Positions 5,223 to 22,570 of a stretch of 64,000 bases of DNA are shown here, in pieces; positions within the stretch are counted from its first letter, which is position 1; each line of letters opens with the position of its first letter. The notes under the pieces were generated by a model. It was not told where the DNA came from. It searched no databases and worked only from the letters and a program-made list of their open reading frames with translations. The stretch spans positions 1,280,001 to 1,344,000 of the forward strand of contig OZ253564.1 in the NCBI GenBank assembly GCA_965262915.1. The letters run 5' to 3'. The position numbers and the translations under genes are program-made. The DNA is from Candidatus Spongiisociaceae bacterium. Lineage in GTDB: Bacteria > Actinomycetota > Acidimicrobiia > Spongiisociales > Spongiisociaceae.

Positions 5223-6427
5223 CAGTAGGTTCCCAGTTCTCGACATCAATCGGACTACGTGGCGTCTGGCCCGGGCCTCCCAGCTACTGGAGTTTTTCGA
5301 GCCTTGAAGAAATGAAGGCTTGCCCACGTCGATTTGCTCTTACTCGTGCGACCTACGCGCAGATCTGGGAGCTAACAGGTTATCCAGACCGTATAACCGA
5401 GCAATCGCTCTTCGGTATCGTGATACACAAAGTTATAGAGACCGTGCTCGGCAGCTTCCTTTCAGCGGGATGTACCTCCGTGTCGGACCAACAAGCTATT
5501 GCCGTAATGCGGAAACTGGGGGGGTACACGGCGATTGTAGCAGCAGAAGTCGGTAGAGCTATCGAACGGCTTCAGTTGAATCCACGGATGGAATCGCAAC
5601 TCAACTATCTAGATGTAAGGCTTCGGCGACGGATGCCCGAAATAAGGGTAGCAGTCCAAAAGCTTATCGCACGTTCCTTACTAGTGAACTCGGAGTCAAT
5701 AGGTGATGGAGGTAGCGGCGTTTGGGCTAGTCGTGCGCCACGTCGTATCAGCAGAGGTTCTCACTCTGAGGTTACCCTCGTCGCCGAGGCCGAGCGGTTC
5801 ACTGGACGTGTGGACCTGGTGACTGTACGAGATGACTCTGCTGATCTGTTGGACTTCAAGTCTGGTAAGCCATCTGATCGTGACGCGCGGCAACTAACTT
5901 TGTATGGGTTGCTATGGGTTAGCGACAAAGTGGCGAACCCCGATCGACTGCCTGTGGGAGCGTTGACAGCTATGTACCCAGATTGTGACCGGTCCGTTCC
6001 CGTGCCCACGCAATGGCAAGCCGTGAAAGTACAACTCCGGGAAGAGATCGAGCGAGCAGAAGAGGAACTTGCCGAAACGCAACCTAAAGCCAACCCGTCT
6101 ACAGAGTGTTACTATTGTCCAGTGCGCCATATGTGTGATGAGTACTGGGGATCACCATTCATACGACGTGACGGAGTCTCATCTTCATTTACCGACATCG
6201 AGGTATTACTACAGCAACGCAACGGACCCCGGAGCTGGAAAGCGCGACTGGTTGCCGACGCCTCCGACATCCTTCTGAGAACCTCCAGCGAGGATGGGGC
6301 GTTCGCGCCTGGACAGCACTTACGTATCTTGGATATCGCACTTGTCGATTCCGGCGATACGGATTGGCCAGTGGCTACTGCAGTGGCTAGTACAGAGGTA
6401 TACAGTGTCGCTGGCGCGATGAGGTAA
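5219..6427 (+). CDS. PD-(D/E)XK nuclease, Cas4/AddB-like with Fe-S cysteines
   Basis: WSFSSLEEMKACPRRF, GRVDLV...LLDFKSG, QLTLY, CYYCPVRHMC; TTG start overlaps the helicase TGA (TTGA). Confidence 0.85.
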   Translation: MTVGSQFSTSIGLRGVWPGPPSYWSFSSLEEMKACPRRFALTRATYAQIWELTGYPDRITEQSLFGIVIHKVIETVLGSFLSAGCTSVSDQQAIAVMRKLGGYTAIVAAEVGRAIERLQLNPRMESQLNYLDVRLRRRMPEIRVAVQKLIARSLLVNSESIGDGGSGVWASRAPRRISRGSHSEVTLVAEAERFTGRVDLVTVRDDSADLLDFKSGKPSDRDARQLTLYGLLWVSDKVANPDRLPVGALTAMYPDCDRSVPVPTQWQAVKVQLREEIERAEEELAETQPKANPSTECYYCPVRHMCDEYWGSPFIRRDGVSSSFTDIEVLLQQRNGPRSWKARLVADASDILLRTSSEDGAFAPGQHLRILDIALVDSGDTDWPVATAVASTEVYSVAGAMR

Positions 6428-6429
6428 CC

Positions 6430-6900
6430 AGGAACAGAACATTGTACGCGTTGGTGAGATAGGCGTCCGCTGCGAGCTCTCGGACGAGTTTGTCATCGAT
6501 GCTGGGCTGGGCGGAGAAGTCAAAGTCTTCGACCTGCCCGGGTCTTGAGAAGTTAGCGAACCTGAGCCGGCCACTCCATCGACGGTGTTAGTTGCTTTGA
6601 CGTCGACCCGAAGCAGCTACTCTAGAAATGCGGTATGACCGATGCTGCTTCGGTTGGCTTGTCCGAGGTGAGCGGGCAGCGCTTCGGCTGCTGCTGCCAG
6701 CTTGAGGTAGGCGAGATGGCTCCGTAGTTACTGGTAGACCGAGTCTTCGCTCATCGGCGCTTCCGATCATGGTTCTGCGGGTCGATGTGCCGTTGGTAGA
6801 TCCCAAGATCAATCACAGCCTCGTTGTGGGCCACGCTGGCTCCGGTGTCAGCTGCGATCGCCAGCGAGTGGATTCTCCTCTCCGGAGTGATTGAGGGAAG
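6430..6900 (-). pseudogene. IS21-family remnant (istA 3' end plus broken istB)
   Basis: Minus-strand fragments HLAYLKLAAAAEALPAHL...TAFLE*LLRVDV and RFANF..EDFDFSAQPSIDDKLVRELAADAYLTNAYNVLFL resemble IstB, with stops and frameshifts. Confidence 0.65.
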
Positions 6901-8219
6901 TCTTCGAATCCGTAGTGGGGGTGAACTGGTCAGGTCTCTATTGTCACGGGGATTCCGATCTGTGTAGCGATTGGCGTGTAGAGGTCTACCTCGACTTCTT
7001 CGGTGTAGAGCGATACGAGGAGTGCATAACGCACCGACAGGTTGTTCCGGTCAGCTCGGTTGTTGTTCTTCCACCATCCACTGACTGGGTACACACCGAG
7101 AACCCCGCAGTCGCCGAGGTCGGCGGCTGTCCCTTCCCACAGGTCCGCATGTAGCGACCCGACATGGCGACTCTGGGGTCCGACAAGCCATTCTGGTTCC
7201 TGTCCTGGACTGTTGTGGGTTCCACCCTCCTCTACTTCGGCGAGACGATTCAAACGGCGTTGGAACTCTACGGTCGTCTCGCCGGGTCGGCGGATGTCGA
7301 ATCTCAGACTGTGGGATGGGTATACGTAGCGGCTTCTCCATCCACGATTCGAAGCATTGGGCTCGATGAAGTAGCTGAGAGTCACCCGCAGCCGCACGGG
7401 TGTTTCGCCAAGATCGAGGAGCTGGTCCCGGGGCCACGGGAGGTCGTGGGTATGCATTTCCCGAAGGCGCGCCTGGCTCCTGTTGTCTTGATCGAAGGGC
7501 TGGATGTGCGATTGGGCGATCAGTGTTACGGCATTGGAAGCACTCCGCAGCACCCGCTCATCGGTGGGGACGCCGAACCCGTAGCGCCTGAGTAGCTGTC
7601 GGCGCTTAGTCTTGGTCGGCGCTTGGTCGATTGCGGCCGCCATAGGCGGCGTCCACTCAGCAGCATGTACGAGCAGCCCTCGGATCGTCTCAGGCCACAG
7701 GTTGGGATAGTTTGCAGCTACCCGCCCGGCGAGGCGTGCTGCTTGAGCCGCCGCAGCGCTGGTCGCGTTTGCGGTCGTGAGCGGACGTCCCAGGGGTTCC
7801 AGGTAGGAGGTTGTCGCGATCGAGACCACATCGTGTTGGTCGAAGTGGGTGGCGTCCGGCGATACTAGGAGGTTGCCGCCTTCCATCACGATGTCCGGCT
7901 TGAGCGGCCAGATCTTAGAGTAATTGACGGATGTCCTGCTGAAGGGTGACAGTTCGCCGCGAGGTGCCAACGGCGTGTATCCAGCGAAGTCGGGATGTTG
8001 CGGCGTGACAGCGAGTTCGGTATAGGCTCCGACGGTCAAAGCGTTCCACGATTGGCCAGGATCTTCGATCGCCAACGTGTCACACACTTCCAGGAAGTTT
8101 GTTTTATGGCCGTCGCGGACGTTCCCTCCTGAGACGATAAGTAGTCGACTGGATTGGGAATCGGGGTCGGTGAGCAACTCGATGCCCGCTTCGGTTGCGG
8201 AAACGTCTGTGCCGAAACT

Positions 8220-9652
8220 GGCTCATCGGATTTCAGTGGGGAGTGACCGATGGGAGTAGGTCCCAGTTGGGTTTCCCCGCGTAGAGAAGGGCGCGGATTC
8301 GGTAGTTCGCGAAGTTGCGGAACCCGAACGCTGCTCGTTTGATCCGTTTGATGAGGTTGTTGAGGGCTTCGGTGGGTCCGTTGGTTACCTTCGAGATGTG
8401 CCAGTTGGTGATCTGGGGGGTCCAGCGGGCGATGGTACGACCCAGCTTGTTGATCTCGGGTGGGCAGGATTCGTGTTGGAGGTCGTCTGCGAGCTGGAGG
8501 GTGTATCGGAGAGCAAGGACCGGACTCTCGATCCCGTAGATGCCTCGTACCGTCTCTTTCGCGTGCCAGGCTGTGCGCACTTCCCCGTAGGGGTCACCAG
8601 CATCGAGGAGACCACGCAGCCGTATTTGACCCCGGTCGCTGATCCTCTCATGCGCAGCGGTTAGGAGCCGCCGTATCCGATACAGCGGGTCATCCTTGCG
8701 GCCTCGATGCCCGAGGGTTTCGTTTTGGACTCTTCGTCGTACCTCGTCGAGACGCTGGTTGGCGAGGCGGATGACGTGGAACGGGTCCGCTACCTGCAGC
8801 GCGTGCGGCAGCACCCTGTCATACGCCTTCCGATACGAACCGGACATGTCCAACACCGCCCAGCGGATAGCCTCACACCATTCGGTGGGTTGTGACCGGA
8901 ACCAGGCTGCGGCGCTTTCTGCTGTTCTACCAGGGACTATGTCGATCAGCTGGTGGCCGCCAACGTCGACGACAGAGGTGCACCAGACTTTGGTACGCCA
9001 ACGGCCCCGACGCCAGAACAACGTCTCGTCCACTCCCACAGCTTCGACGGTCCCGACCCGATCGGTGTCTGCTTCCAGCAGCGCTTCGCCCCAGCGGCCA
9101 ACCTCTTTGTTCACCGTATGCCAATCACAACCAAGTTCTGCGGCGACCTCGTCGACCGAACGGCCCCGCCCACCCACCTGGATGGTCACCCACCGGGCCG
9201 CTCGGGATGTCAACAACGCCCGTTGGGGACCAATCTTGGGGTCTTGTTCGATGAACGATCTGAGCGCACAGTCGGGGTTCGGACATGTCCAGCGCCGTTT
9301 CCGCCACCGCAGCCGCACAGGCCGGCCGAACGCCGGTAAATCCACCAACACAACCGTCCGATAGCCCTTCGACCACACCGACCCGCCACAGGACTCACAC
9401 AACGGCCGGGGCTTGCGGGACCGGATCACCACCTCCAACGGTGCCTCCTCGCCCGGGTCGTTGATCCCTACCAGATCAACCTCACCTAGGCCTACCAACT
9501 TCTCGCACATGCGCGTAGGATCAGCTTCCACAGGGGTCCTCCTGCCTCGGATGTCATTACCAACACCCGATTATGGAGGACCCCTCCTCACTTCTGGTGG
9601 ATTCCAACTCCCCCTGGCAGATCCCCTACTCCCCACTCATTTCCGAAGAGCC
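8220..9652 (-). mobile_element. ISL3-family insertion sequence, 1433 bp, 8-bp TSD
   Basis: IRs GGCTCATCGGATTTCAGTGGGGAGT / GGCTCTTCGGAAATGAGTGGGGAGT (21/25); CCGAAACT duplicated at 8212-8219 and 9653-9660. Confidence 0.95.
8233..9531 (-). CDS. ISL3 transposase
   Basis: Zinc finger CESC...CPNPDC, GVDET, VLDMS, ADPFHV, TNGPTEALNNLIKRIKRAAFGFRNF. Confidence 0.95.
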   Translation of the reverse strand: MEADPTRMCEKLVGLGEVDLVGINDPGEEAPLEVVIRSRKPRPLCESCGGSVWSKGYRTVVLVDLPAFGRPVRLRWRKRRWTCPNPDCALRSFIEQDPKIGPQRALLTSRAARWVTIQVGGRGRSVDEVAAELGCDWHTVNKEVGRWGEALLEADTDRVGTVEAVGVDETLFWRRGRWRTKVWCTSVVDVGGHQLIDIVPGRTAESAAAWFRSQPTEWCEAIRWAVLDMSGSYRKAYDRVLPHALQVADPFHVIRLANQRLDEVRRRVQNETLGHRGRKDDPLYRIRRLLTAAHERISDRGQIRLRGLLDAGDPYGEVRTAWHAKETVRGIYGIESPVLALRYTLQLADDLQHESCPPEINKLGRTIARWTPQITNWHISKVTNGPTEALNNLIKRIKRAAFGFRNFANYRIRALLYAGKPNWDLLPSVTPH

Positions 9653-10890
9653 CCGAAACTGAGGGCATCGATCGTCGCAGACCACAATGTGGGGCGACCA
9701 TCGGATCGGGAGTCTTGGTCGCTAATTGCCATACAGAAAATCCGTCGTCGTGCGGGCACGGATGCCTCCGGTGCGGACACGCCTGCTGCCGTTACGGCTC
9801 CGTAAGTCTCCGGTGGATTGGGAGTCGTATCAGGCAGAATCTTCACGGACTCGAGACGGTGAACCAACTGCACATCCAACCCCGAGGTGAGGACATCGGT
9901 CACGTCACCGAACAGGCCCAGACCTGCCATGGCCGTTCCGTGTCCGTTGCGGTCATGTCCGTCGGGGCCGACTACATCGTGGATGTCTCCAGCGTGGAGC
10001 GAGTCTCGGAACAGGGAGTGCTGGTAGATCCCGGTATCAAGCAGGCACACGGCGGGTGCATGCTCTGGAGCTGGGACGATGCGCCTTAGTGTTTTCTTTA
10101 CCCATTCCTGCTGGGTCTCGCGAGGAAGTTCGGCAGGCGAAGCCAGACTCGCGTATCGGATCTCAGCGATCGGAAGCCGAGACGCTAAAGAGGCACCCAG
10201 AGATGCCAAGTCTGTCCGGACGGCCGTAACGGTGCGTCCTGGGCGTGGGAACTCGACCGCTTGTGCAGCCAGTTCCCACTCGGCGCTTGCTGCGACCTGG
10301 GTGAGAGTGTCGAGTTCTTGTCCGGTACGGCGGAGCCAGATCTCCCACCAGCCCATGCTCTCGCTGGGATACGGACGGTGATCCGTCCACAACTGCTCCA
10401 GCGTCGCCCGCTGCAAGGACGCGATGTTGGCCACGAGCTTCTCGTGGCGTGGCGTGCCCTTGCGCGTTTCCTCATTGGCGTAGCGGTCAAGCCGTGAGAA
10501 GAACTGCCCGACTTGAGAGTCAGGAACGGAGACTGTCGCGATCTCGGCTGATAGAGGATCACCGGCAGGCAGTCTCACTGAGAGCAACTCGATACCCGAC
10601 CCTCGGAGATCGAGACTCTCCAAGGCGAGTGTGAACCCGTTCGGCCAACCCACCACAGCGAGAATGACACCGTCCGCTTTCAGTTCTTCGGACCACTGCT
10701 CTCGGGCATCCTGTGCCTCATCGATCGCCCCCTCGAGGCCTTCACGCAGTGCGCTGGCGTGTGCCTGCCGGTCGGGGATCTTAGGTAGCTTTGGTTGACC
10801 GTCCCCGCCACCGCGCCGCTGGTATCGGTCGGTGATCGGCTCGGCTGGAACCAGGATATGTGGAAGCTCGTAGACCATTCGCCCGCCCGA

Positions 10891-11868
10891 TCAGTTGTCG
10901 TTGGGACGCCGCTCTCGGAGCGCCTCTTCCAAGACAGCCGTTGTGATCCTCTTCTCTTGTGCTAACACGGTCTGTTTGGCTGCAGCCTCGGCAGCGCGAA
11001 CAAGGTCCGCTTGGCTTAAGCGAGCCGTCTGACCAGCAAGCACATCCCAATCAACGTCCATCGTGTCGAGCATCGCAAGCCGACTCCTCATCACCGCCAC
11101 CGCTGCACCAGGATCAGGCAGCGAATACTCGATAACCTGGTCAAATCTGCGATAAAGCGCTTGGTCCAACAACCTAGGATGATTCGTCGCCGCGACAACC
11201 ACGCTCACCGGTGACGCGTGTTCCAGGAATTGAAGGAAAGAGTTGAGCACCCGCCGAGCTTCGCCCACGTCGTTAGGCGCACCCCGTTCGGCTCCGAGAG
11301 CGTCAAACTCGTCGAACAGATAAACGGCTCTGGTCGACGCTACCGCATCGAACACGAGGCGCAGCTGAGCTGCCGTCTCCCCCATGTACTTGCTTATCAC
11401 TACATCGAGCTGGATGGTAAAGAGCGGTCGCTTCAAGCTATGGGCGAGCGCAGCCGCCGACATACTCTTGCCCGTACCCGGCGGGCCCAGAAGCAACACG
11501 CGATGAATAGGGTCAAGACCGTGGGTCGCCAGCAGGTCCGAGCGACGCTGCTCGGTGAGAATACGCTCAAGCTTCCTAAGCAACTGAGGTTCCAACGTCA
11601 TCATGTCCAAGGAGACCTCTGGGTAACTCACCGTCACCAGACCCGCGAGCTCCCCTCGCGGCTGCACCATCGGCACGGGACGCAAAGCCGCGGCCGCACG
11701 TTCTCCCTTCGCAGCATCGATCAAATCCCGAAGATCCTGGGCAAACCGATTCTTCCCTTCTCTGGCGGCTCTCGCAGCAACCTGAAGCGCGACGGAGTAG
11801 AAGCCGTCGTCGTCGCCATCCATGTGGCGACGAATTAATGCCTTGAAGTGATCAGCGGTGAGTGCCAT
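10891..11868 (-). CDS. ietA: AAA ATPase, IetA-like
   Basis: GPPGTGKS, LFDEFD, AATNH, RRFD; directly upstream of the S8 peptidase in the canonical ietAS order. Confidence 0.85.
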   Translation of the reverse strand: MALTADHFKALIRRHMDGDDDGFYSVALQVAARAAREGKNRFAQDLRDLIDAAKGERAAAALRPVPMVQPRGELAGLVTVSYPEVSLDMMTLEPQLLRKLERILTEQRRSDLLATHGLDPIHRVLLLGPPGTGKSMSAAALAHSLKRPLFTIQLDVVISKYMGETAAQLRLVFDAVASTRAVYLFDEFDALGAERGAPNDVGEARRVLNSFLQFLEHASPVSVVVAATNHPRLLDQALYRRFDQVIEYSLPDPGAAVAVMRSRLAMLDTMDVDWDVLAGQTARLSQADLVRAAEAAAKQTVLAQEKRITTAVLEEALRERRPNDN

Positions 11869-15799: not shown

Positions 15800-17554
15800 C
15801 TACGTTACGTCAGCATCGGCTAGGGCTTGATCTGCTGACCGGTGTTCAGCGTTTGGGTTGAGCTGTGGTTGCGATGACAGGTCTTTGAGCCGCCAGTTGA
15901 TCGGCTTCTCTGGGTCGAAGCTCTTCTCCAGTTGGTGCAAGAAGTCGTTCCCAGGATGGTTCTCAACGGCGGTGGAGATGAGGTTGTGTGCATGCTCGGC
16001 CTTCCCCACAGCCTGGTAACGCGTCGCGAGGTCCAGGGATAAGCCTGCCCTAAATTCACGAGGCATCCTCAAGCAGTTACGCTTGCCATGGCTTCGGAGG
16101 TAGGCGTCGTGAACGGATTGGTGTTCCTCTAAGGGCCATTCTGGGACAGTTCCTAGGAGAAGATGCACTACCATAGCTTCAACAGATGGGGCCTCGACTT
16201 CTTCTCTGTATCTTGTTATGACAGCGTCATAATTCTGCATCGGTGTTTCGGCCATTGCCAGCTTGTTAAATAGGATATAGAGTGCTAAGTACGGCCTTCG
16301 TCGGGGCTTTCCTATATTCGGGAGCAGTTGTTCAACCTTCACGAGGGTATCTTGCAGGTCTGTAACGGCTTGTCCTCCGCGTACGAAGCCCGCTAATTGG
16401 TCTAGAAAGCCCTCCAGACGCTTCCGCCCAGCCGAGGCGGTCACGCTCTCGACCCGACCAATCCAGTACTGCGGAGCAGGAGGGACGTATACAATACCTG
16501 CGCGTTCTTGGCTGTAGTCGTAAACCTCGGTAGTGACCTTCGGCTGACTCCTTATGAAGTCGTTGATCACGTGACGTGCCAAGCGTGCCATACCCTGGAA
16601 CGTCAGGATAGTAACGCCGCCCATACTGAGGGATTCGCCGTGGTGCGGGACTGCCGTGAGTAAAGTCGGTAACTCCCCAAGCTCATGAATGTGCTTTGAG
16701 CGTAGTCCATAGGCTCGGTTCAGTGCGCGCCGAAGATCCGCGCGTCCTATCGGGTTTTCTGACCCCGAAGCCTCTTCACGAAAGTAAGACGGCTGTAGAT
16801 GATCTAGTGCAAATTCACAGAAACGACGGCTGGCTGCGACATGCTCAATCTCCAAGAGTGCACTCTTCACCCGCTCCCTTGTCTGGTCATCCGTCTCGTC
16901 CAACGCCTTGTCGAGTTTGCAGCGCTTGTCTTCAGGATAATCGTCCCAATTAGGAACATGGCCGTCGAACCCCTGAGTTAACGACTCAATGGAAGCGACT
17001 AGCAATGTATAAGTCAGTTCAGGATCGTCTACGAGCCGGTGGAGCCCAATAATATAGTTGCGTATTGCTCGCATGGACGCAAGGTAGGTCTTGCGTTCGA
17101 GTCCAATCAGATCGCTTACGAACCCGACCAGTGTGGTGGCGTCATCGTCGTGGCACCAGACTTGAGAATCGAAGGTCCGGCTAACTAGACTGCTCGGTAC
17201 AACACCAACCAGAGGGCCGCCCGGTTGACTACTTGTTAGCCTGCGGGTGAGTTCATGATCAGGCGTACATGTAACGTTCAGTGCGAAAGAGACGATTGCC
17301 GTAAAGTCACTCAGATATGGATCAATACCATGAGATACGATTACTCCGGGGCCGGGCTCACCTTCGATCAGTTCCGTCAGTTCGTATACGGCGGTACCCG
17401 CATCGCGTAGGAAACTCGTCGGCAATAGCCGGCCAGCAGCCGTCTCTATCGGGGCTCTGCCATACAGCTGGAGATTCGTATGAACTATCCCACGGAGTTC
17501 ATTACGCTGTGCTGGCCCGTGGCTAAAGAGTTTACCCGAAGCTATTTGAAGCAT
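15800..17554 (-). CDS. Hypothetical protein with a HEPN-like Rx4H motif (ApeA-like HEPN candidate)
   Basis: LLVASIESL helix followed by AYGLRSKHIH (R-x4-H); more AT-rich than flanks; ATG at 17554 (MLQIASG). Confidence 0.55.
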   Translation of the reverse strand: MLQIASGKLFSHGPAQRNELRGIVHTNLQLYGRAPIETAAGRLLPTSFLRDAGTAVYELTELIEGEPGPGVIVSHGIDPYLSDFTAIVSFALNVTCTPDHELTRRLTSSQPGGPLVGVVPSSLVSRTFDSQVWCHDDDATTLVGFVSDLIGLERKTYLASMRAIRNYIIGLHRLVDDPELTYTLLVASIESLTQGFDGHVPNWDDYPEDKRCKLDKALDETDDQTRERVKSALLEIEHVAASRRFCEFALDHLQPSYFREEASGSENPIGRADLRRALNRAYGLRSKHIHELGELPTLLTAVPHHGESLSMGGVTILTFQGMARLARHVINDFIRSQPKVTTEVYDYSQERAGIVYVPPAPQYWIGRVESVTASAGRKRLEGFLDQLAGFVRGGQAVTDLQDTLVKVEQLLPNIGKPRRRPYLALYILFNKLAMAETPMQNYDAVITRYREEVEAPSVEAMVVHLLLGTVPEWPLEEHQSVHDAYLRSHGKRNCLRMPREFRAGLSLDLATRYQAVGKAEHAHNLISTAVENHPGNDFLHQLEKSFDPEKPINWRLKDLSSQPQLNPNAEHRSADQALADADVT

Positions 17555-17573
17555 GATTATCTCGTTACACAAT

Positions 17574-17617
17574 TCTTTTCAAGGTTGATGGCGACTCTTT
17601 TTAATGTTGATGGCGAC
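17574..17617. repeat. Two tandem 22-bp repeats upstream of the HEPN-like gene
   Basis: TCTTTTCAAGGTTGATGGCGAC / TCTTTTTAATGTTGATGGCGAC (20/22). Confidence 0.8.
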
Positions 17618-17768
17618 GCGATCTAGTCGGCCCTTCACGGGACGCTGGGTTTCGTCGGTTCTTGTTGTCGGTGTCCGTTCATGTTAGGAGGCGGATTCGG
17701 GCGGTGTAGCTGCGTGGGTACCTCGTCCTCCAGACTACGGCTCGACTGCATCATGCCAAGTAGTAGAG

Positions 17769-18170
17769 CTACTCGTCGAGCGTCTGGCTCATCCGGATCG
17801 AGTTGTAGATGTGCTCCCAGCGCTCACGGGTTTGGGGTCGCACGCCGCGGAACTCGATGCCAGCCAGCATCCGAACGTCGCTTTCGGGGAGCCCCTTCGC
17901 CTGGGCGAACTCGTGCAGGCTGTCGGGGATGTCGGTGGGCTGCTTTGCGAGCAGCCGACGGCCGAGGAGGGCGCTCATGGTGACGCCGAGTGCTTTGGCG
18001 ACGGCGTAGAGGGTTTCGGCCGATGGTCGCTTGCCGGCCGTGTTCTCAAGACTCCAGAGGTAACCCTTGCTCACCCCGGCGGATATGGCGAGCTGGCTGA
18101 GACTTAGGCCGGTGTCACCTCGATACTTGCGGATTCGATCTCCAATTGATTCGCCGGTCTCGTTGCTCAT
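17769..18170 (-). CDS. capH: XRE-family repressor, CapH/DdrO-like
   Basis: IRKYRGDTGLSLSQLAISAGVSKGYLWSLEN HTH; C-domain IEFRGVRPQTRERW resembles the DdrO ELRG cleavage region; paired with an IrrE-like peptidase beside CBASS. Confidence 0.75.
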   Translation of the reverse strand: MSNETGESIGDRIRKYRGDTGLSLSQLAISAGVSKGYLWSLENTAGKRPSAETLYAVAKALGVTMSALLGRRLLAKQPTDIPDSLHEFAQAKGLPESDVRMLAGIEFRGVRPQTRERWEHIYNSIRMSQTLDE

Positions 18171-18213
18171 GGTTGGTGGAGGCTGCGTGGTGCGATCATG
18201 GGTCTCCCTTTCG

Positions 18214-19140
18214 TTACAGGCCACGGCGGTAGAGCGCAAGGACGCGCTTTCGTCCGTTGTAGGGCACTACCCGTGCCGAAACCTCGACATCCGGAACAGG
18301 CTCCCGCGAGAGCTCGTCGAGGGTCGTGTGTTCATGCACCACCTCTCCCTGCATGGCACGCCCAAGGGGTGAGTCGATGCTGACCGACTTGTGGGTGGGG
18401 ATGAATGGCCAGTCCCCCCGGCTTCGGGCGGTACGAACACGCAATTTAGGCTCGGCGTGCGGGTCGCCGTGCTGGCTTGGCTTTAGATTGTCTTCGAGGA
18501 CGATGAACATCGTCGGGTAGGGTGCGAGGTCCACGATTCGGTGTCCGCTCGCTTCGAGGCTCGCCTGGTAGGTCTCTGCCACGTTCATCAGGGTCTCTAT
18601 CCCGAAGTCGGTGTTGTTCAGGTCCGCTTGCAGGTGCTTCTGAGGTAGGAGAAGTGAGCTAGCGCCCTGATCGCACATGGCTTCGAGGTCATTGCCTTTC
18701 CCTGGAGTGACCGAAGGTGCGCATCGGTAGCGCGGCTGCAGCTCAAAGCCCTGAAAGAAGGTGTGAACACACTCGTGGAAGATGGTGAATCGCCGTCGCG
18801 TCTCTCCATCCGAGGCCCTCACCTTGATCGTGATGTCCTGATCGTCGCAGATGAGGCACCCCGCGACATCAAGTTCGGTCTCCTCGATTCGTGACACATC
18901 GAGGTATGAGGCCACGACTGCGGGATCGATTGGGGGAGTTAGCGCCAGCTCATTGATGACGTCGTCCGCGACGGCGACAACGTCCGCGGGCCCGGGCTGG
19001 CGGAGGCACTGGAACTCGAGGAGGGACAGCTGTTTCACGTTCCCGTTCGATGATAGGGCGTTCTCGGTCAGGAACTGGTATCGTACTCCGGTAGAGAACG
19101 GGATGGTCCCGTTCGGGAACGGGGGGTGAGATGAGCTCAC
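18214..19140 (-). CDS. capP: ImmA/IrrE-family metallopeptidase, CapP-like (true start probably downstream of 19140)
   Basis: RRRFTIFHECVH (HExxH), EAMCDQGASSLLLP, YQASLEA, then a C-terminal GAF-like region. Confidence 0.8.
   Translation of the reverse strand: MSSSHPPFPNGTIPFSTGVRYQFLTENALSSNGNVKQLSLLEFQCLRQPGPADVVAVADDVINELALTPPIDPAVVASYLDVSRIEETELDVAGCLICDDQDITIKVRASDGETRRRFTIFHECVHTFFQGFELQPRYRCAPSVTPGKGNDLEAMCDQGASSLLLPQKHLQADLNNTDFGIETLMNVAETYQASLEASGHRIVDLAPYPTMFIVLEDNLKPSQHGDPHAEPKLRVRTARSRGDWPFIPTHKSVSIDSPLGRAMQGEVVHEHTTLDELSREPVPDVEVSARVVPYNGRKRVLALYRRGL
19096..19123. promoter_or_regulatory. Overlapping inverted repeats in the divergent capP/CBASS control region (candidate operator)
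   Basis: GAACGGGA-tgg-TCCCGTTC (19096-19114) and CCCGTTC-gg-GAACGGG (19108-19123); further GTTC/GAAC half-sites at about 19037-19075. Confidence 0.5.
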
Positions 19141-19376
19141 GCAACGAACGACACGTTACGCCGCATCCGGAGGGTGGCTGGCAGGTTACCCGTCCGGGTG
19201 CCGCCCGGGCCATTGCGCGTACCGAAACGCAAGCAGACGGGATCGACCGAGCAAGAGCACTCCTGGGCAACGACGACGGCGGCGAGTTGGTGATTCATGG
19301 CCGCGACGGCCGGATCCGTGACTCGGACACGATCTCGCCGGGCAACGATCCGTTCCCACCAGCGGACACGCGGTAA
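19131..19376 (+). CDS. DUF2188 family small protein
   Basis: HVTPHPEGGWQV...TETQADGIDRAR...GGELVIHGRDGRIRDSDT. Confidence 0.85.
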   Translation: MSSRNERHVTPHPEGGWQVTRPGAARAIARTETQADGIDRARALLGNDDGGELVIHGRDGRIRDSDTISPGNDPFPPADTR

Positions 19377-19384
19377 CCGCCACC

Positions 19385-20386
19385 ATGGATGTGTCCGAGT
19401 CCACCGCGGCTGGGTTGCCGGACCCATGCGCCGCGCCCCTCCAGGTGCTCGCGCTCGACGGCGGGGGACTACGCGGGATCTTCACGGCGGCAACGTTGGC
19501 GGCGTGGGAGGAAGACTTCGGCACGTCGATCGCTGATCACTTCGATCTGATCGTCGGGACCTCGACCGGCGGCGTTATTGCGCTCGCGCTAGGGCTCGGC
19601 GTGTCCCCGGCCGAGATCCTGTCGATCTATGTCGATCACGGCGACCGTATCTTCCCGCCAGCGCAGCGAACGCGTCGCGGATTGTGGCGACGGCTTCGAC
19701 GACCTCGATACAGCGCTATCGACCTGCGCGCGGTGTTGCAGGACTGCTTTGGCAATCAGATTCTCGGGGACTCGCGAGTGCGGCTCGCCATTCCAAGCTA
19801 CGACCTGGCCGCTGATCACGTCCACCTCTTTCGCACCCCGCACCATCCAGATCTCCGACGCGACTGGCGAGTGCCGGTCGTCGACGTCGCGTTGGCCACC
19901 ACAGCAGCACCGACATTCCTCCCCGCCCATCGGATGGATGCGCACCGTCTGATCGATGGTGGTGTATGGGCTCACAACCCCACGCTGGTAGGCGTGGCGG
20001 AATGCTTCGATCGCCTCGGGGGAGAACGCGGCCGCATCCGTGTTCTCAGTGTGGGTACTACAAGCGAGATCCGCGAACGGCGACCCGCCCTCGACAACGG
20101 AGGACTCCTCGCATGGCGCTCTGACGGTCTCGATGTGATGCTGCGGGGCCAATGCCTCGCGGCAACTAACCACGCCCGCCTCATTCTCGGGCGACACAAC
20201 GTGGTGCGGGTGGACGTGTCGACCCCCGAAGGCCTCCACACTCTTGACTTGGTGACCACACAGGACCTGATCGGACGCGCCCACGCAGAAAGCCGCACCC
20301 GGTCGCCAGCGCTGGCAGATCTCCTCAAGCATTCCCCCTCAAAGTACGACCCCTTCTATTGCAAGGAGCATCCCCATGGCCAATGA
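19385..20386 (+). CDS. capV: Patatin-like phospholipase, CBASS effector (CapV-like)
   Basis: DGGGLRG, GTSTG, AAPTF, IDGG; overlaps the CD-NTase start. Confidence 0.9.
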   Translation: MDVSESTAAGLPDPCAAPLQVLALDGGGLRGIFTAATLAAWEEDFGTSIADHFDLIVGTSTGGVIALALGLGVSPAEILSIYVDHGDRIFPPAQRTRRGLWRRLRRPRYSAIDLRAVLQDCFGNQILGDSRVRLAIPSYDLAADHVHLFRTPHHPDLRRDWRVPVVDVALATTAAPTFLPAHRMDAHRLIDGGVWAHNPTLVGVAECFDRLGGERGRIRVLSVGTTSEIRERRPALDNGGLLAWRSDGLDVMLRGQCLAATNHARLILGRHNVVRVDVSTPEGLHTLDLVTTQDLIGRAHAESRTRSPALADLLKHSPSKYDPFYCKEHPHGQ

Positions 20387-21506
20387 CGACCTCCGGTTGA
20401 TCTCGCAACTGCTCGGCGCCTCGGTCGAGGTGCTCGACATCTCAGCCGAGCAGTACGAACTCGCAGTGTGTCGGTACGAAGACCTCGGCCAGTGGCTCGT
20501 CACGCAAGGCATCGGCGATCCCGACGTGTACCCACAGGGCTCGTTCCGGCTGGGAACGGTCGTGCGGCCAACCAACAGCAGCGACTTCGATATCGACCTT
20601 GTCTTCCTCCGGTCCCTGGCCAAGGAGTCGATCACCCAGAAGGAACTCCGCTCCCAGGCGGGGAAGCTGCTGCGGGCCTACATCGCCACTCGCGGAGACG
20701 AGAACGGGAACCCGGGGTTGGAGGAGAAAAGCCGCTGCTGGACACTTGTCTATACCAACGACAAGTTCCACATGGACGTGCTACCGGTCATCCCCGATCC
20801 CGACGGCGACGACACTGCCATCCTGCTCTCCGATCGTGACCTGTTCCAGTGGCAACACAGCAACCCGATCGGATACGCCGACTGGTTCTGGAGATCCATG
20901 GGAGACGCCGTTGAGATCGGCAGAGCCCAACTGGCCACGACCCTCAGCCGAGACGTCGAAGACGTCCCCCGGTGGCTGGTGCGGACCACGCTGCAGCGTG
21001 TTGTCCAACTCCTCAAGCTGCACCGCGACACCTTCTTCCGCAACCAGCCCCGAGACAAGCCCGCCTCCATTCTCATCACGACTCTGGCAACTCACGCGTA
21101 CAGCGGCGAGAGCGACCTATACGAGGCGTACCGGAAGATCGCGTACAACCTCCCCTCCCATATCGAACGGCGCAACCGCAAGTTCTGGGTTCCGAACCCA
21201 GCCCACGAGGAGGAAAACTTTGCAGACAAGTGGAACACGAACCCGGCCCGTAAAGCGCACTTTGATCGGTGGGCTCAGGCCCTGACCGCCGATGCCGACC
21301 GGTGGATCGGCAGCGCCGGCGTCGACGAAGCGGTGCGGTCACTCGGCGCTGCACTTGGAAGTGCGCCGGTGCAAGCGGGAGCGAAGCGCGTAGCGACGAG
21401 ACTTTCCTCCGCCACAGCAAGCGGCGCCCTCGCCGTCACCCAGCGCGGGAGGTTGACTCAGGGGCGGGGCACCGAGATCCCGCGCCACGACTTCCATGGC
21501 CAGTAA
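20376..21506 (+). CDS. cGAS/DncV-like nucleotidyltransferase (CD-NTase, SMODS)
   Basis: QGSFRLGTVVRP...DFDIDL, HMDVLP, SNPIGYADWF, NPAHEEENFADKW; C-terminus RHDFHGQ. Confidence 0.9.
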   Translation: MANDDLRLISQLLGASVEVLDISAEQYELAVCRYEDLGQWLVTQGIGDPDVYPQGSFRLGTVVRPTNSSDFDIDLVFLRSLAKESITQKELRSQAGKLLRAYIATRGDENGNPGLEEKSRCWTLVYTNDKFHMDVLPVIPDPDGDDTAILLSDRDLFQWQHSNPIGYADWFWRSMGDAVEIGRAQLATTLSRDVEDVPRWLVRTTLQRVVQLLKLHRDTFFRNQPRDKPASILITTLATHAYSGESDLYEAYRKIAYNLPSHIERRNRKFWVPNPAHEEENFADKWNTNPARKAHFDRWAQALTADADRWIGSAGVDEAVRSLGAALGSAPVQAGAKRVATRLSSATASGALAVTQRGRLTQGRGTEIPRHDFHGQ

Positions 21507-21966
21507 CCGCCTACCCGGACTCTTTCGCGAGATCAAGCTACTTCGTAGCCACTATCCCGACGGGACTACGAAGCTGAAGGCGGGAACGCTGCAATGGACT
21601 GGTGAACTCCAGCCGAGTGAGATCAGCAACCTATACCTCGTGGTTCTAAGATACGCGCCGCCGAAGCACCCTCACATCATCGTACGGAAGCCCCAGTTGG
21701 TTGCCGATGCCGACGGCCACCTACCCCACAGCTACCACAACGGCAGCCTCTGTCTCTACAAACCCGGCCAGTGGGAACATGGCGATCGACTCGCTACCAC
21801 GATCCTGCCTTGGACGTGTGAGTGGCTGCTCCACTACGAGTTCTGGCGCGCAACCGGGGAGTGGTGTGGGAGTGGCGGCGACCACGCCGGTCCGGTCAAC
21901 CGGCCCAAGCACCACTCCGGGCGTCGGGGTAAGACTCGCGCCGGGCGTCGGATCGTTGCGAACTGA
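21496..21966 (+). CDS. Stand-alone E2-like protein of short type II CBASS
   Basis: WTGELQPS...Y..LRY, LPHSY...SLCLY (putative catalytic Cys), ILPWTCEWLLHYEFWRATGEW; overlaps the CD-NTase stop. Confidence 0.8.
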   Translation: MASNRLPGLFREIKLLRSHYPDGTTKLKAGTLQWTGELQPSEISNLYLVVLRYAPPKHPHIIVRKPQLVADADGHLPHSYHNGSLCLYKPGQWEHGDRLATTILPWTCEWLLHYEFWRATGEWCGSGGDHAGPVNRPKHHSGRRGKTRAGRRIVAN

Positions 21967-22379
21967 CTTCCCGCTACCCGCGATCACCTGACGGGCCGGG
22001 ACGCCCACTCGGCCCGCCCTAGAGGAGCCAGCAGGCTACGTGGGAAACATCGCAGTACCGCCACCGAGGTCCGACACCACCGCCCCCAGACAGAACGCGT
22101 AGCTGCGTCGGGCGTTTGGGGATAGCGGTTTGGCAGCGAGGAATTGTTCAACAGCGCGGTCCAGAGACGGCACCCTATCCGGGAGAAGAACAGGCTCAGC
22201 CACCCCAGGACCTTCCTTAGGAGAGATAACAGGCAGGGTTCACCGGAGGGGACGGTAACCGCTCCCCCAGCGTGTTCGGGGTTTCGTTCCGTTGTTAGGA
22301 GAGATAATGGGCCAATATCTCTCGTTTGGCACAGGCGAACCCTACCCACGGGCTTCCGGGCACCATCCGATGTGTGCCC

Positions 22380-22570
22380 TAGTCAAACCCGCCAGCGGAT
22401 GGACACTCCACCAACTACGACACTCGGCCCTCACCCACCTCGGCGAGCAAGTTGCCTCCGCTGTCCTACCCCAAGCCAAAAGCCGCCACTACGACCTTCG
22501 CGCCCTCACCCAATACACCACACCTGGCAAGAAGCGGTCGCCGTTTTCACCGCACAGTTCGACCCAGGAG
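22380..22570 (+). pseudogene. Tyrosine recombinase C-terminal remnant
   Basis: GWTLHQLRHSALTHLGE...KSRH..LRALTQY (HxLRH...H...Y); N-terminal part absent. Confidence 0.7.

What the first reader, a model, noticed from the sequence alone, without database searches (positions are those of the whole stretch)
17769..21966. CBASS with an E2-only ancillary gene, a leading DUF2188 gene and a divergent IrrE/DdrO-like switch
Seen: tightly packed DUF2188-patatin-CD-NTase-E2 operon with no E1 or JAB gene, divergent from a peptidase and HTH pair. Known: short type II CBASS encode only an E2, and CapH/CapP de-repress CBASS on DNA damage. Inference: DUF2188 as first cistron (8 bp from the patatin) may be an uncharacterised CBASS accessory, such as a conjugation target or regulator. 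I do not recall this complete six-gene arrangement being characterised in actinobacteria.
Basis: partly seen in the sequence, partly recalled or inferred. Interest (0 to 1): 0.72.

Follow-up and report, generated by a model that had tools for sequence, protein, structure and literature searches.

The report
Repressor-gated E2-only CBASS led by DUF2188
This is an ordinary anti-phage alarm system (CBASS) under a DNA-damage-type switch; its small extra first gene (DUF2188) is real and strongly conserved, but it follows such switches ahead of many kinds of immune operon and is not specific to CBASS.

Summary
The six genes are real and lie where the finding says. They are capH, capP, DUF2188, capV (patatin), a CdnG-like CD-NTase and an E2-only Cap2. 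They sit in a defence island. No E1 or JAB gene lies in the window.

The CBASS and CapH/CapP reading holds. The catalytic residues, the E2 cysteine, the CD-NTase C-terminal glycine motif and an IrrE/CapP-like fold are all present.

DUF2188 is a genuine gene. It has the lowest dN/dS of the six genes (0.06-0.09).

It is not CBASS-specific:
- 8 of 79 related CBASS loci hold it.
- About 3 of 44 of its close metagenomic relatives precede a CBASS.
- 14 of 49 of those relatives directly follow a CapH/CapP-like pair.

The operons it heads include CBASS types I, II and III, Pycsar, TIR, E2/ubiquitin-like and peroxidase cargo.

The window's copy has no lysine, which argues against the conjugation-target idea.

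The literature already notes CapH/CapP-DUF2188 operons. PADLOC lists the family as candidate PDC-S16. Earlier notes of this scan describe DUF2188-led defence operons on other DNA.

Verdict: a new member of a known kind. The function of DUF2188 remains open.

The parts
17769..18170 (-). capH: HTH (XRE-type) repressor, 133 aa from ATG 18170
   Evidence: Pfam HTH_31 1.5e-09. PADLOC capH 3.1e-14. The start was chosen because relatives carry 133-aa ORFs and the translation begins MSNETG.
18214..19038 (-). capP: IrrE/PprI-like Zn metallopeptidase, 274 aa from GTG 19038
   Evidence: PADLOC capP 8.8e-25. Pfam Peptidase_M78 6.6e-05. H88, E89, H92 and E119 are invariant in 27 sequences. The model has pLDDT 71.6. 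It matches PprI 8slm at E 1.5e-09, IrrE 3dte/3dti, and Thauera CapP 7t5t at E 2.9e-08 over 304 columns. The start comes from alignment A2.
19039..19130 (.). 92-bp divergent control region with GTTC/GAAC repeats and palindromes; candidate CapH operator and promoters (inferred)
   Evidence: Perfect 8-nt inverted repeat GAACGGGA/TCCCGTTC at 19096-19114, plus a third copy at 19041-19048. The GTTC, GAAC and GAACGG columns are invariant across 5 relatives, while the surrounding columns vary. The sigma-70 consensus scan found nothing here. The TANNNT -10 candidates were read by eye only.
19131..19376 (+). DUF2188 gene (81 aa), first cistron of the operon; PADLOC candidate family PDC-S16
   Evidence: Pfam PF09954 2.2e-22. 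PADLOC PDC-S16 5.9e-25. It is 86-90% identical in four relatives, the highest of the six genes. dN/dS is 0.058-0.094. The model has pLDDT 83.8 with a beta3-alpha-beta2 arrangement.
19385..20386 (+). capV: patatin-like phospholipase effector, 333 aa
   Evidence: Pfam Patatin 6.2e-25. PADLOC phospholipase effector 5.7e-102. GTSTG and DGG motifs were read in the translation; the motif definitions are recalled.
20376..21506 (+). CD-NTase (CdnG-like), 376 aa
   Evidence: PADLOC cyclase PDLC00780 3.5e-111. Nearest solved chains are 9woo_A at 4.2e-52 and SmCdnG 8hsb at 3.2e-30. Q54-G55-S56, D72, D74 and D134 are invariant. H371, F373 and G375 are nearly invariant in 44 sequences.
21496..21966 (+). 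E2-only Cap2 (156 aa)
   Evidence: PADLOC E2 PDLC00876 9.3e-42. P77, H78 and C86 are invariant in 51 sequences.

Best explanation
The locus is a CapH/CapP-gated, E2-only (type II-short) CBASS inside a defence island.

Shown by sequence:
- a divergent pair of an HTH repressor (CapH) and an IrrE/PprI-like Zn peptidase (CapP);
- a 92-bp spacer rich in repeats;
- a four-gene operon DUF2188-capV-cdn-E2, with an 8-nt gap and then two 11-nt overlaps.

Inferred from the characterised homologues (Lau et al. 2022; Xiao et al. 2026):
- CapH represses the operon until CapP, activated by single-stranded DNA, cleaves it.
- The CdnG-like cyclase is held by covalent linkage of its C-terminal glycine (G375) to the E2 cysteine (C86).
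- On infection the cyclase makes a cyclic dinucleotide, which switches on the CapV phospholipase and kills the infected cell.

DUF2188 is a real, strongly constrained protein made as the first product of the de-repressed promoter. My reading is inference, at about 40-50% odds. On this reading it is not a CBASS part proper. It is a portable, regulator-linked accessory: a small protein that travels with damage- or stress-responsive switches (CapH/CapP above all) at the head of interchangeable immune operons. It would act at the level of the switch or as a general brake or feedback, not on the CD-NTase or E2 specifically.
For: CBASS core:
- HMM matches.
- Catalytic and conjugation residues are conserved.
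- No E1 or JAB in the window.

CapP:
- HExxH plus E119 are invariant.
- The full-length fold matches PprI/IrrE and Thauera CapP.

Control region: palindromes and invariant GTTC/GAAC columns.

DUF2188 is a functional gene:
- It has the lowest dN/dS of the genes in 4 of 4 comparisons.
- It has the highest identity, 86-90%.

Link to regulators:
- In 79 metagenomic loci with a relative (46-76% identical), 18 have a capP/capH-like gene within 1.5 kb upstream.
- Of the 49 loci that have at least 1200 nt upstream, 14 do.
- Most of these regulators are divergent, with a spacer of 100-250 nt.
- Other upstream genes are sigma-70 region-4 proteins (6 loci), a Peptidase_S24 (LexA-like) protein (L250) and HTH proteins.

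Cargo behind DUF2188 is interchangeable:
- CapV-CdnG-E2 (the window and L032, L036, L037, L040)
- Cap5-CdnG-E2 (L031)
- CapV plus a CD-NTase::E2 fusion (L068)
- CD-NTase-E2-Cap5 (L111)
- CD-NTase-CapV (L233)
- TRIP13-HORMA-HORMA (L182)
- PycC-E2-PycTM (L112)
- ThsB-like TIR (L250)
- Prok-E2_E (L245)
- haem peroxidase (L172, L113)

On a tree of 107 DUF2188 proteins, the CapH/CapP-linked and CBASS-linked members are scattered.

Lau et al. 2022 report CapH/CapP operons with DUF2188.
Against: - Most DUF2188 genes have no CapH/CapP-like neighbour: 35 of 49 assessable metagenomic loci, and 58 of 60 phylum stretches lack capP.
- Of 21 CBASS loci with an adjacent capP-like gene, 17 lack DUF2188. Neither partner needs the other.
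- The family also occurs in plainly non-immune settings. It is fused to DUF2382, DUF6766, DJ-1 and an IleRS. It also lies after class II ribonucleotide reductase.
- The model has no informative structural match.
- No biochemical activity, expression data or binding partner is known.
- My gene calls in foreign loci are heuristic. The local HMMs miss divergent CD-NTases, as they did in L233 and L182, so the counts are lower bounds.
- The cyclic nucleotide, the CapH operator and CapP activation are all inferred from homologues.
Confidence: 0.5

Rival explanations
1. One reading: DUF2188 is a dedicated CBASS accessory. It would be either a target of CD-NTase/E2 conjugation or a direct regulator of the cyclase or E2.
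For: - It is the first cistron, 8 nt from capV, and is kept in four relatives.
- L031 shares a 93%-identical cyclase and an 84%-identical E2. Its effector is swapped to Cap5 and its DUF2188 is only 57% identical, yet the operon still begins with DUF2188.
- CBASS-linked DUF2188 genes occur at several separate places on the tree: the window clade, L031, L068, L111, L246, L233 and L182.
- A Rhodococcus plasmid copy, 65% identical, lies between two nucleotidyltransferase-SLATT pairs.
- DUF2188 is drawn beside the P. aeruginosa Pa011 CBASS.
- E2-like genes recur near DUF2188 even without a CD-NTase (L112, L121, L245).
Against: - Only 8 of 79 related CBASS loci hold it, and in 2 of those it lies 1.3-2.5 kb away, behind hsdS in a type I R-M operon.
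- Of the 12 closest loci that can be assessed, 7 lack it.
- Of 60 phylum DUF2188 stretches, 1 is beside a CD-NTase. About 3 of 44 metagenomic loci with enough downstream DNA are.
- The window's protein has no lysine and ends in ...PPADTR. It can be neither a lysine acceptor nor a glycine-terminal donor.
- In characterised E2-CBASS the cyclase is linked to the E2 itself.
Confidence: 0.12
2. DUF2188 is a self-contained small defence or stress gene (PADLOC candidate PDC-S16). It merely shares defence islands, prophages and plasmids with other systems, and its place in this operon has no functional meaning for CBASS or CapH/CapP.
For: - PADLOC models it as a single-gene candidate.
- It is found in 59 of 401 phylum genomes, against 9 of 401 for the cyclase.
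- It lies beside R-M, Dsr1, integrases, transposases and toxin-antitoxin genes.
- It occurs in 20 phage records, mostly in prophage lysogeny or moron regions, and in 39 plasmid records.
- In L074 and L093 it is one of several inserts inside a type I R-M operon.
Against: - The position is fixed: first gene, same strand, an 8-nt gap, and the regulator's divergent promoter directly upstream. The same layout recurs in unrelated lineages.
- It is the most constrained gene of the operon.
- 14 of 49 loci directly behind one particular regulator type is far more than loose island clustering would give. I had no matched control set to put a number on this.
Confidence: 0.25
3. DUF2188 is a host-encoded safety catch for signalling immune systems. 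It would be either an antitoxin-like neutraliser or a binder of nucleotide second messengers that sets the activation threshold.
For: - It heads operons built on four unrelated signal makers: CD-NTase, PycC, TIR and, as neighbours, GGDEF.
- In M. abscessus prophages the domain is the C-terminal part of a 197-aa protein annotated as an antitoxin, next to a BrnT-like toxin.
- The best Foldseek hit is the HicB antitoxin N-domain (probability 0.93 but E 0.12, 42 columns).
- Conserved polar residues (H8, W17, T32-Q33, H56, D59-G60, R63) would suit a ligand site.
Against: - The structural match is not significant and was not reproduced by the second aligner, whose best hit was Z 5.3 to AcrIF5.
- Many DUF2188 loci hold no signalling enzyme.
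- The 'antitoxin' label is an annotator's, not an experiment.
Confidence: 0.1

Closest known systems
E2-CBASS (type II-short) of Serratia marcescens, SmCdnG-SmE2 (Xiao et al. 2026, PMC12948482; abstract and first part of Results read)
   Same: - A single-domain E2 follows a long CD-NTase.
- SmCdnG (8hsb) is one of only three solved relatives found, at E 3.2e-30.
- The C-terminal H-x-F-[HY]-G motif and the E2 cysteine are conserved.
- There is no E1 or JAB.
   Different: - The window adds CapH/CapP and a leading DUF2188 gene.
- It comes from an Acidimicrobiia-like genome. This is judged from the titles of the closest loci, not from a name for the genome itself.
- No biochemistry has been done.
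CapH/CapP-regulated CBASS of E. coli MS115-1 and Thauera sp. K11 (Lau et al. 2022, bioRxiv 10.1101/2022.04.27.489752; passages read)
   Same: - A divergent HTH repressor is paired with an HExxH metallopeptidase that has an IrrE-like three-domain fold. 7t5t matches the CapP model at E 2.9e-08.
- The pair lies upstream of the immune operon and on the opposite strand.
   Different: - Here capP is proximal to the promoter and capH is distal.
- I did not test for the cysteine-switch loop.
- The first gene under the promoter is DUF2188, not a CBASS gene.
CapH/CapP + DUF2188 operons of Tsuneonella flava MS1-4 and Extensimonas perlucida HX2-24 (Lau et al. 2022, Fig. 6F legend)
   Same: A CapP-like and a CapH-like gene sit next to a DUF2188 gene and a nucleotide cyclase or unknown genes. 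My locus L112 (capH-capP, then DUF2188-PycC-E2-PycTM) is of this kind.
   Different: There the cargo is not a CBASS. The authors did not study the DUF2188 gene.
Pseudomonas aeruginosa BWHPSA011 type II CBASS (Huiting et al. 2022, bioRxiv 10.1101/2022.03.30.486325; Fig. 1A legend read)
   Same: A DUF2188 gene is drawn adjacent to a CapV-CD-NTase-Cap2 operon.
   Different: That system has an E1/E2 Cap2 and a JAB Cap3 and carries CdnA. DUF2188 is treated there as a neighbour, not as part of the system.
PADLOC-DB candidate PDC-S16
   Same: The window's DUF2188 matches both PDC-S16 models (5.9e-25 and 4.7e-22).
   Different: PDC-S16 is a single-gene candidate. I found no paper that names it (0 papers).
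Mycobacterium abscessus CmaABC CBASS (Wang et al. 2025, PMC12359967; abstract and one Results section read)
   Same: It is an actinobacterial CBASS with a phospholipase-type effector and a cGAS-like cyclase, and phage defence has been shown experimentally.
   Different: CmaC has both E1 and E2 domains, so it is not an E2-only system. The parts I read mention neither DUF2188 nor CapH/CapP.

Membership tests
CBASS, type II-short (E2-only) | CD-NTase with the GS motif and three catalytic acidic residues | tested here: met
   Q54-G55-S56, D72, D74 and D134 are invariant in a 44-sequence alignment. PADLOC cyclase 3.5e-111.
CBASS, type II-short (E2-only) | A nucleotide-activated effector encoded in the operon | tested here: met
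   Patatin/CapV: Pfam 6.2e-25 and PADLOC 5.7e-102. The GTSTG and DGG motifs are present in the translation.
CBASS, type II-short (E2-only) | E2-like protein with a catalytic cysteine; no E1 domain and no JAB peptidase | tested here: met
   E2 at 9.3e-42, with C86, P77 and H78 invariant in 51 sequences. The protein is 156 aa. The genome's ThiF and Prok-JAB matches all lie outside the window.
CBASS, type II-short (E2-only) | CD-NTase C-terminal glycine available for linkage to the E2 | tested here: met
   H371, F373 and G375 are each conserved in at least 90% of 44 sequences. Among the loci with a separate E2 gene listed, nearly all end in H-x-F-[HY]-G followed by 1-8 further residues. The CD-NTase::E2 fusions there lack this end, and one locus (L066) ends W-Y-G.
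CBASS, type II-short (E2-only) | Makes a cyclic oligonucleotide and protects against phage | not testable with these tools
   Needs biochemistry and phage assays.
CD-NTase clade G | Groups with clade G reference sequences | tested here: inconclusive
   One of the two nearest solved chains is named CdnG (8hsb, 3.2e-30). The closest, 9woo_A, is titled only 'cyclic GMP-AMP synthase'. According to Xiao et al., 73.65% of E2-CBASS cyclases are clade G. I built no tree with references for all clades.
CapH/CapP regulator pair | CapP: HExxH Zn metallopeptidase with an IrrE-like peptidase-linker-GAF architecture | tested here: met
   H88, E89, H92 and E119 are invariant. The model matches PprI, IrrE and CapP over 267-304 columns at E 1.5e-09 to 2.9e-08. 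The C-terminal domain of the model has low confidence, pLDDT 50-70.
CapH/CapP regulator pair | CapH: an HTH repressor encoded next to CapP, upstream of the immune operon and on the opposite strand | tested here: met
   HTH_31 at 1.5e-09 and PADLOC capH at 3.1e-14. The orientation follows from the coordinates.
CapH/CapP regulator pair | CapH binds the operon's promoter, and ssDNA-activated CapP cleaves CapH | not testable with these tools
   Only indirect evidence: conserved repeats and palindromes in the 92-bp spacer.
DUF2188 (PF09954) / PADLOC PDC-S16 | Profile match above the curated cut-off | tested here: met
   79.4 bits against a cut-off of 22. PDC-S16 at 5.9e-25.
HicB-type antitoxin N-domain (considered for DUF2188) | A significant structural match to the HicB N-terminal fold | tested here: inconclusive
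   Foldseek 6hpb_B: E 0.12, probability 0.93, 42 columns. It is not among the top rows of the second aligner, whose best hit is Z 5.3.

The most novel reading that the evidence does not exclude
DUF2188 is the unrecognised third part of a portable, damage-gated controller of bacterial immunity. The controller would be a cleavable repressor system (CapH/CapP, or a LexA-like or sigma-type regulator) plus DUF2188 as the first product of de-repression. This cassette would be plugged in front of CBASS types I-III, Pycsar, Thoeris-like, ubiquitin-like and still unknown effectors. DUF2188 would set the feedback or the auto-immunity threshold.
Probability: 0.3. Interest if true: 0.7.

Novelty: new member of a known kind. 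Interest (0 to 1): 0.4.

Why it matters
The CBASS itself adds little. It is an E2-only, CapV-armed, CapH/CapP-gated system of a described kind, in a poorly studied actinobacterial lineage.

The useful outcome concerns DUF2188. It is a widespread 80-residue protein with no known function. It is the most constrained gene of this operon. It repeatedly sits as the first gene behind damage- or stress-responsive switches and ahead of interchangeable immune cargo.

If it proves to tune such switches, it would explain how toxic abortive-infection systems are kept quiet. It would also mark the head of unknown defence operons. Several loci here carry uncharacterised cargo behind CapH/CapP-DUF2188, for example 300-aa proteins without a family match and haem peroxidases.

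Tried and rejected
- Complex prediction of CdnG + E2 + DUF2188, with DUF2188 as the partner, gave no verdict (score 0.00). It was a three-chain job, unlike the tool's calibration. It is not used as evidence either way.
- A profile of the 35-sequence DUF2188 alignment found no solved structure up to E = 1.
- Fold searches of the DUF2188 model found nothing significant. Foldseek against PDB gave a best E of 0.12. VIA-align gave a best Z of 5.3, to AcrIF5. Against viral models, the single hit at E <= 0.001 was an unnamed protein. The next hit was a mycobacteriophage protein at E 1.2e-3, and the DUF1508 proteins were weaker.
- The protein atlas, searched with DUF2188 clusters left out, gave no usable hit.
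- A search for longer homologues found 5 proteins, most probably with over-called N-termini. One is fused to hydantoinase domains.
- The sigma-70 and terminator consensus scan of 17500-22500 found nothing in the 92-bp spacer and no terminator after the E2 gene. That scan is not made for high-GC actinobacterial promoters.
- I considered that CapV's C-terminal HGQ might be a second conjugation site. It is not conserved in the relatives. It arises from the overlapping start of the next gene.
- I considered that E2 might be the specific partner of DUF2188. E2-like genes recur (L112, L121, L245), but so do operons without any E2 (L233, L182, L250). I left this as an open observation.
I repeated it with the single protein.
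- Burroughs & Aravind 2020, which Lau et al. cite for DUF2188, is not held, so I could not see what it says.

Full report
OBSERVATION

- Pfam finds HTH_31 (1.5e-09), Peptidase_M78 (6.6e-05), DUF2188 (2.2e-22), Patatin (6.2e-25), and DncV-like NTFase/SMODS (6.4e-10 / 4.1e-07). It finds nothing for the last ORF.
- PADLOC names all six: capH 3.1e-14, capP 8.8e-25, PDC-S16 5.9e-25, phospholipase effector 5.7e-102, cyclase PDLC00780 3.5e-111, E2 PDLC00876 9.3e-42.
- DUF2188 ends 8 nt before capV. capV/cdn and cdn/E2 each overlap by 11 nt.

Two gene starts need correction.
- An alignment of the spacer with four related loci puts the capP start at GTG 19038; the relatives have ATG there. This gives 274 aa, as in the relatives.
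- capH starts at ATG 18170 and gives 133 aa.
The divergent units are therefore separated by 92 bp (19039-19130).

That spacer holds a perfect 8-nt inverted repeat, GAACGGGA/TCCCGTTC, and a third copy of TCCCGTTC. Its GTTC, GAAC and GAACGG columns are invariant among the five loci, while the neighbouring columns vary. I read this as the CapH operator and promoter region. That is inference: the consensus promoter scan found nothing there.

SURROUNDINGS

Positions 1-23 kb form a defence island with lower third-position GC than the rest of the window. It holds:
- a DruE-like helicase and a PD-(D/E)xK nuclease (99-6427);
- IetA and an IetS gene split by an ISL3 transposase (6930-11868);
- an IS110 transposase.
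Housekeeping-type genes start near 23.8 kb. There is no tRNA in the window.

The genome is one 5.06-Mb contig. The window's DUF2188 is its only match to the family.

THE CBASS CORE

In 44 aligned cyclases, the GS motif (Q54-G55-S56) and D72, D74 and D134 are invariant. H371, F373 and G375 are nearly so. The C-terminus reads H-x-F-[HY]-G plus 1-8 residues in nearly all listed relatives that have a separate E2 gene.

In 51 E2 sequences, P77, H78 and C86 are invariant.

The only solved relatives are 9woo_A (4.2e-52), SmCdnG 8hsb (3.2e-30) and 7ljn (3.4e-07).

Xiao et al. 2026 (PMC12948482; abstract and first part of Results read) report three relevant points. E2-CBASS cyclases are long and 73.65% of them are clade G. 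The E2 becomes covalently linked to the cyclase C-terminus. The E2 removes residues or fusions beyond the glycine. The window fits this picture. My clade assignment rests on nearest named neighbours only.

Hobbs & Kranzusch 2026 (preprint; abstract and first part of Results read) report that phage prohead proteases activate CdnG-type cyclases by cutting a surface loop. I did not test for such a loop here.

No E1 or JAB gene is in the window. The genome's ThiF and Prok-JAB matches lie elsewhere.

THE SWITCH

In 27 aligned CapP-like proteins, H88, E89, H92 and E119 are invariant. These correspond to the HExxH motif plus the third zinc ligand that Lau et al. describe for Thauera CapP (passage).

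The AlphaFold model has mean pLDDT 71.6, with a weaker C-terminal domain. It matches full-length PprI 8slm (E 1.5e-09), IrrE 3dte/3dti and Thauera CapP 7t5t (E 2.9e-08, 304 columns).

By homology, CapH should repress the operon until ssDNA-activated CapP cleaves it (Lau et al. 2022, passages). None of this can be tested here.

THE DUF2188 PROTEIN

The model is confident (pLDDT 83.8). It shows three strands, a helix and two strands, followed by a disordered, proline-rich tail.

In 35 relatives, W17 and G60 are nearly invariant. The consensus is HVvP..GGW.V...GA.RAS...TQ.EA...A.......G.E..IH..DG.IR..D..G.DP.PP.D.

No solved structure matches by sequence or convincingly by fold.

The window's protein contains no lysine and ends in PPADTR. 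It cannot accept an isopeptide on lysine, and it cannot act as a glycine-terminal donor. About ten of the 35 relatives do end in ...PPKG, which I leave unexplained.

Against four loci with the same six-gene layout, DUF2188 is the most conserved gene. It is 86-90% identical, against 72-84% for cdn, 65-79% for E2, 79-82% for capV, 73-83% for capP and 75-85% for capH. It has the lowest dN/dS in 4 of 4 comparisons: 0.058-0.094, against 0.10-0.36 for the others. The capH value failed for one locus. DUF2188 is a working protein, not a leader artefact.

IS IT A CBASS PART? THE VIEW FROM CBASS

A scan of species-representative genomes with the cyclase gave 79 loci. The closest are Acidimicrobiia genomes assembled from metagenomes, 62-93% identical. 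Local HMMs built from the window's six proteins find DUF2188 in 8 of the 79.
- In six it lies directly upstream of the effector: L031, L032, L036, L037, L040 and L068.
- In two it lies 1.3-2.5 kb downstream: L074 and L093. In both, PADLOC shows the CBASS and DUF2188 as separate inserts inside a type I R-M operon.

At least seven loci are cut by contig ends close upstream of the first CBASS gene (for example L042 and L063). The count of 8 is therefore a lower bound.

Among the 13 closest loci, 5 have DUF2188, 7 lack it and 1 cannot be assessed.

Of 21 loci with an adjacent capP-like gene, 4 have DUF2188. All four have separate capH and capP genes and belong to the window's lineage. Most of the loci with one ORF that matches both capH and capP (Mycobacterium, Micromonospora and others) lack it.

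L031 is instructive. Its cyclase is 93% and its E2 84% identical to the window's. Its effector is a Cap5-type SAVED-HNH nuclease, its upstream gene is a transposase fragment, and its DUF2188 is only 57% identical. The operon still starts with DUF2188.

THE VIEW FROM DUF2188

(a) Phylum sample of 401 genomes.
- DUF2188 occurs in 59 genomes, at 71 places. These tallies include four genomes flagged as unpublished, which hold five places.
- The cyclase query matches in 9 genomes, at 11 places.
- The two lie together only in the window's genome and in G121.
- I fetched +-7 kb around 60 stretches from 52 genomes. I left out the window's own genome, the unpublished genomes and three matches below the cut-off.
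- Local HMMs find a CD-NTase in 1 stretch (L111) and capP-like genes in 2 (L112, L113).
- I ran Pfam on the two genes either side for 40 loci (147 proteins) and PADLOC on 50 chosen neighbours. The contexts were:
  - L111: DUF2188-CD-NTase-E2-Cap5 plus two more cyclases;
  - L112: capH-capP divergent from DUF2188-PycC-E2-PycTM;
  - L113: capH-capP-DUF2188, then a PDC-S66/CHAT-like protein and a haem peroxidase;
  - L121: weak BilB/C/D-like genes followed by DUF2188;
  - L133: Dsr1;
  - many R-M, integrase and transposase neighbours;
  - plain housekeeping settings as well.

(b) The 80 closest metagenomic relatives, 46-76% identical.
- 79 have a callable ORF.
- 18 have a capP/capH-like gene within 1.5 kb upstream. 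Of the 49 with at least 1200 nt upstream, 14 do. Most of these regulators are divergent, with a spacer of 100-250 nt.
- Of the 44 with at least 1500 nt downstream, 3 are followed by CBASS genes: L182 (TRIP13-like AAA plus two HORMA), L233 (CD-NTase plus CapV) and L246 (CD-NTase).
- One (L250) is followed by a ThsB-like TIR, and its upstream gene is a Peptidase_S24 (LexA-like) protein.
- Other downstream genes are a Prok-E2_E (L245), a haem peroxidase (L172), DNA methyltransferases, and many proteins without a family match.
- Upstream genes in loci without CapP include sigma-70 region-4 proteins (6 loci), DUF3892 (4), class II ribonucleotide reductase (4) and toxin-antitoxin genes.

(c) Mobile elements.
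- 20 phage records hold a homologue. In M. abscessus prophages it is the C-terminal part of an annotated antitoxin beside a BrnT-like toxin. In a Streptococcus prophage I looked at (Javan35), it lies in the lysogeny module.
- 39 plasmid records hold one. In a Rhodococcus plasmid it lies between two nucleotidyltransferase-SLATT pairs.

(d) Tree. A quick tree of 107 DUF2188 proteins used 92 columns, so many forks are unresolved.
- The window groups with its four relatives (SH-aLRT 98).
- That group sits inside a 12-row clade (SH-aLRT 97) that also holds the CapH/CapP-linked L182 (type III CBASS parts) and L172 (peroxidase).
- The CapH/CapP label needs 16 changes for 20 rows. The shuffled mean is 18.2, and 57 of 500 shuffles were as low.
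- The CBASS-linked rows are scattered.
The links are therefore made and broken often.

READING

DUF2188 is neither necessary for, nor specific to, CBASS. Two features recur: its position as the first gene behind a damage- or stress-type regulator, and the interchangeability of what follows it.

I therefore favour a regulator-linked, portable accessory, at about 40-50% odds. The alternatives are an independent small defence or stress gene (about 25%), a CBASS-specific partner or conjugation target (about 12%), and a nucleotide-binding or antitoxin-like safety catch (about 10%).

E2-like genes near DUF2188 in systems without a CD-NTase (L112, L121, L245) remain an unexplained recurrence.

WHAT IS KNOWN

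The full-text search for DUF2188 with CBASS found 3 papers. The search for DUF2188 alone found 13. The search for PDC-S16 found none.
- Lau et al. 2022 list CapH/CapP operons with DUF2188. They cite Burroughs & Aravind 2020 for a predicted defence link. That paper is not held.
- Huiting et al. 2022 draw DUF2188 next to the Pa011 CBASS.
- A 2025 Thoeris preprint mentions a putative effector with DUF2188.
- I saw no experiment on the protein.
- Supplementary tables of the preprints are closed and may list this arrangement.

Earlier notes of this scan describe DUF2188 behind LexA-like repressors, heading CBASS, TIR and other cargo in Patescibacteria. They also describe it with an ImmA/IrrE peptidase and a sigma factor at a ubiquitin-like operon, and fused to IleRS. 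These are unchecked AI leads. My own data reproduce:
- one S24-DUF2188-TIR locus (L250);
- sigma-like neighbours;
- E2/ubiquitin-like neighbours;
- an IleRS fusion (L136).

LIMITS

- Gene calls in foreign loci are heuristic (longest ORF plus third-position GC).
- The local HMMs miss divergent family members.
- Many contigs are short.
- No matched control set was available to turn the co-occurrence counts into enrichment statistics.
- Nothing here tests expression or activity.

Noticed in passing
window 99-6427 (+): A 1707-aa DruE-like helicase (PADLOC DruE1, E = 0; the match starts at profile position 146) is followed by a PD-(D/E)xK nuclease with a weak DruK match. This looks like a Druantia-like system at the left edge of the island.
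   Followed up: no
window 6930-11868 (-): An IetA AAA ATPase (3.2e-66) lies with an IetS subtilase gene that is split in two (6930-8177 and 9637-10878) by an ISL3 transposase (8233-9531). This is a Ietas-type system, probably inactivated by the insertion.
   Followed up: no
window 15800-17572 (-): A 590-aa ORF lies directly downstream of capH on the same strand. It has low third-position GC (0.56) and no Pfam or PADLOC match. It may be a further island gene.
   Followed up: partly
G000:C1:4429644-4431811 (outside the window): The genome holds a second, weak CD-NTase-like match (1.5e-6, 338-aa frame). A ThiF/E1-like match in a 598-aa frame lies 1.5 kb away. This may be a second, E1/E2-type CBASS.
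   Followed up: no
L074 4319-15043; L093 4336-14600: In an Oscillibacter genome and a Planctomycetales genome, a Cap5-CD-NTase-E2 CBASS sits between hsdM and hsdS of a type I R-M operon. DUF2188 plus PDC-S34 or PDC-S54 sits between hsdS and hsdR. Both are defence cargo nested inside an R-M operon.
   Followed up: partly
L112 (G232) 4170-8276: capH-capP is divergent from DUF2188-PycC-E2-PycTM. This is a Pycsar-type cyclase operon that also carries an E2-like gene with a SEC-C motif.
   Followed up: partly
L175, L184, L187, L192 (metagenome); L137 (G119): DUF2188 lies directly after a class II (B12-dependent) ribonucleotide reductase gene with a TSCPD domain in five loci. In two of them a DNA methyltransferase follows.
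   Followed up: no
L222, L240, L247, L248; also L183, L206: A small DUF3892 gene directly precedes DUF2188 in four loci, and a DUF1508 gene lies next to it in two. Lau et al. name DUF3892 as the other CapH/CapP-linked unknown family. DUF1508 proteins are among the weak structural look-alikes of the DUF2188 model.
   Followed up: no
L172 852-2249; L113 8412-9815: An animal-haem-peroxidase-family protein lies behind CapH/CapP-DUF2188 in two unrelated loci. This is an unusual candidate cargo.
   Followed up: no
window 20366-20395 and 21486-21515: Both gene junctions of the operon use nearly the same overlapping sequence, CATGGCCA[A/G]T[G/A]A. As a result both upstream proteins end in HGQ, and both downstream proteins start with MA.
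   Followed up: yes
L136 (G119) 3188-7204: An isoleucyl-tRNA synthetase ORF runs on into a C-terminal DUF2188 domain (residues 1272-1330, 6.7e-16).
   Followed up: no
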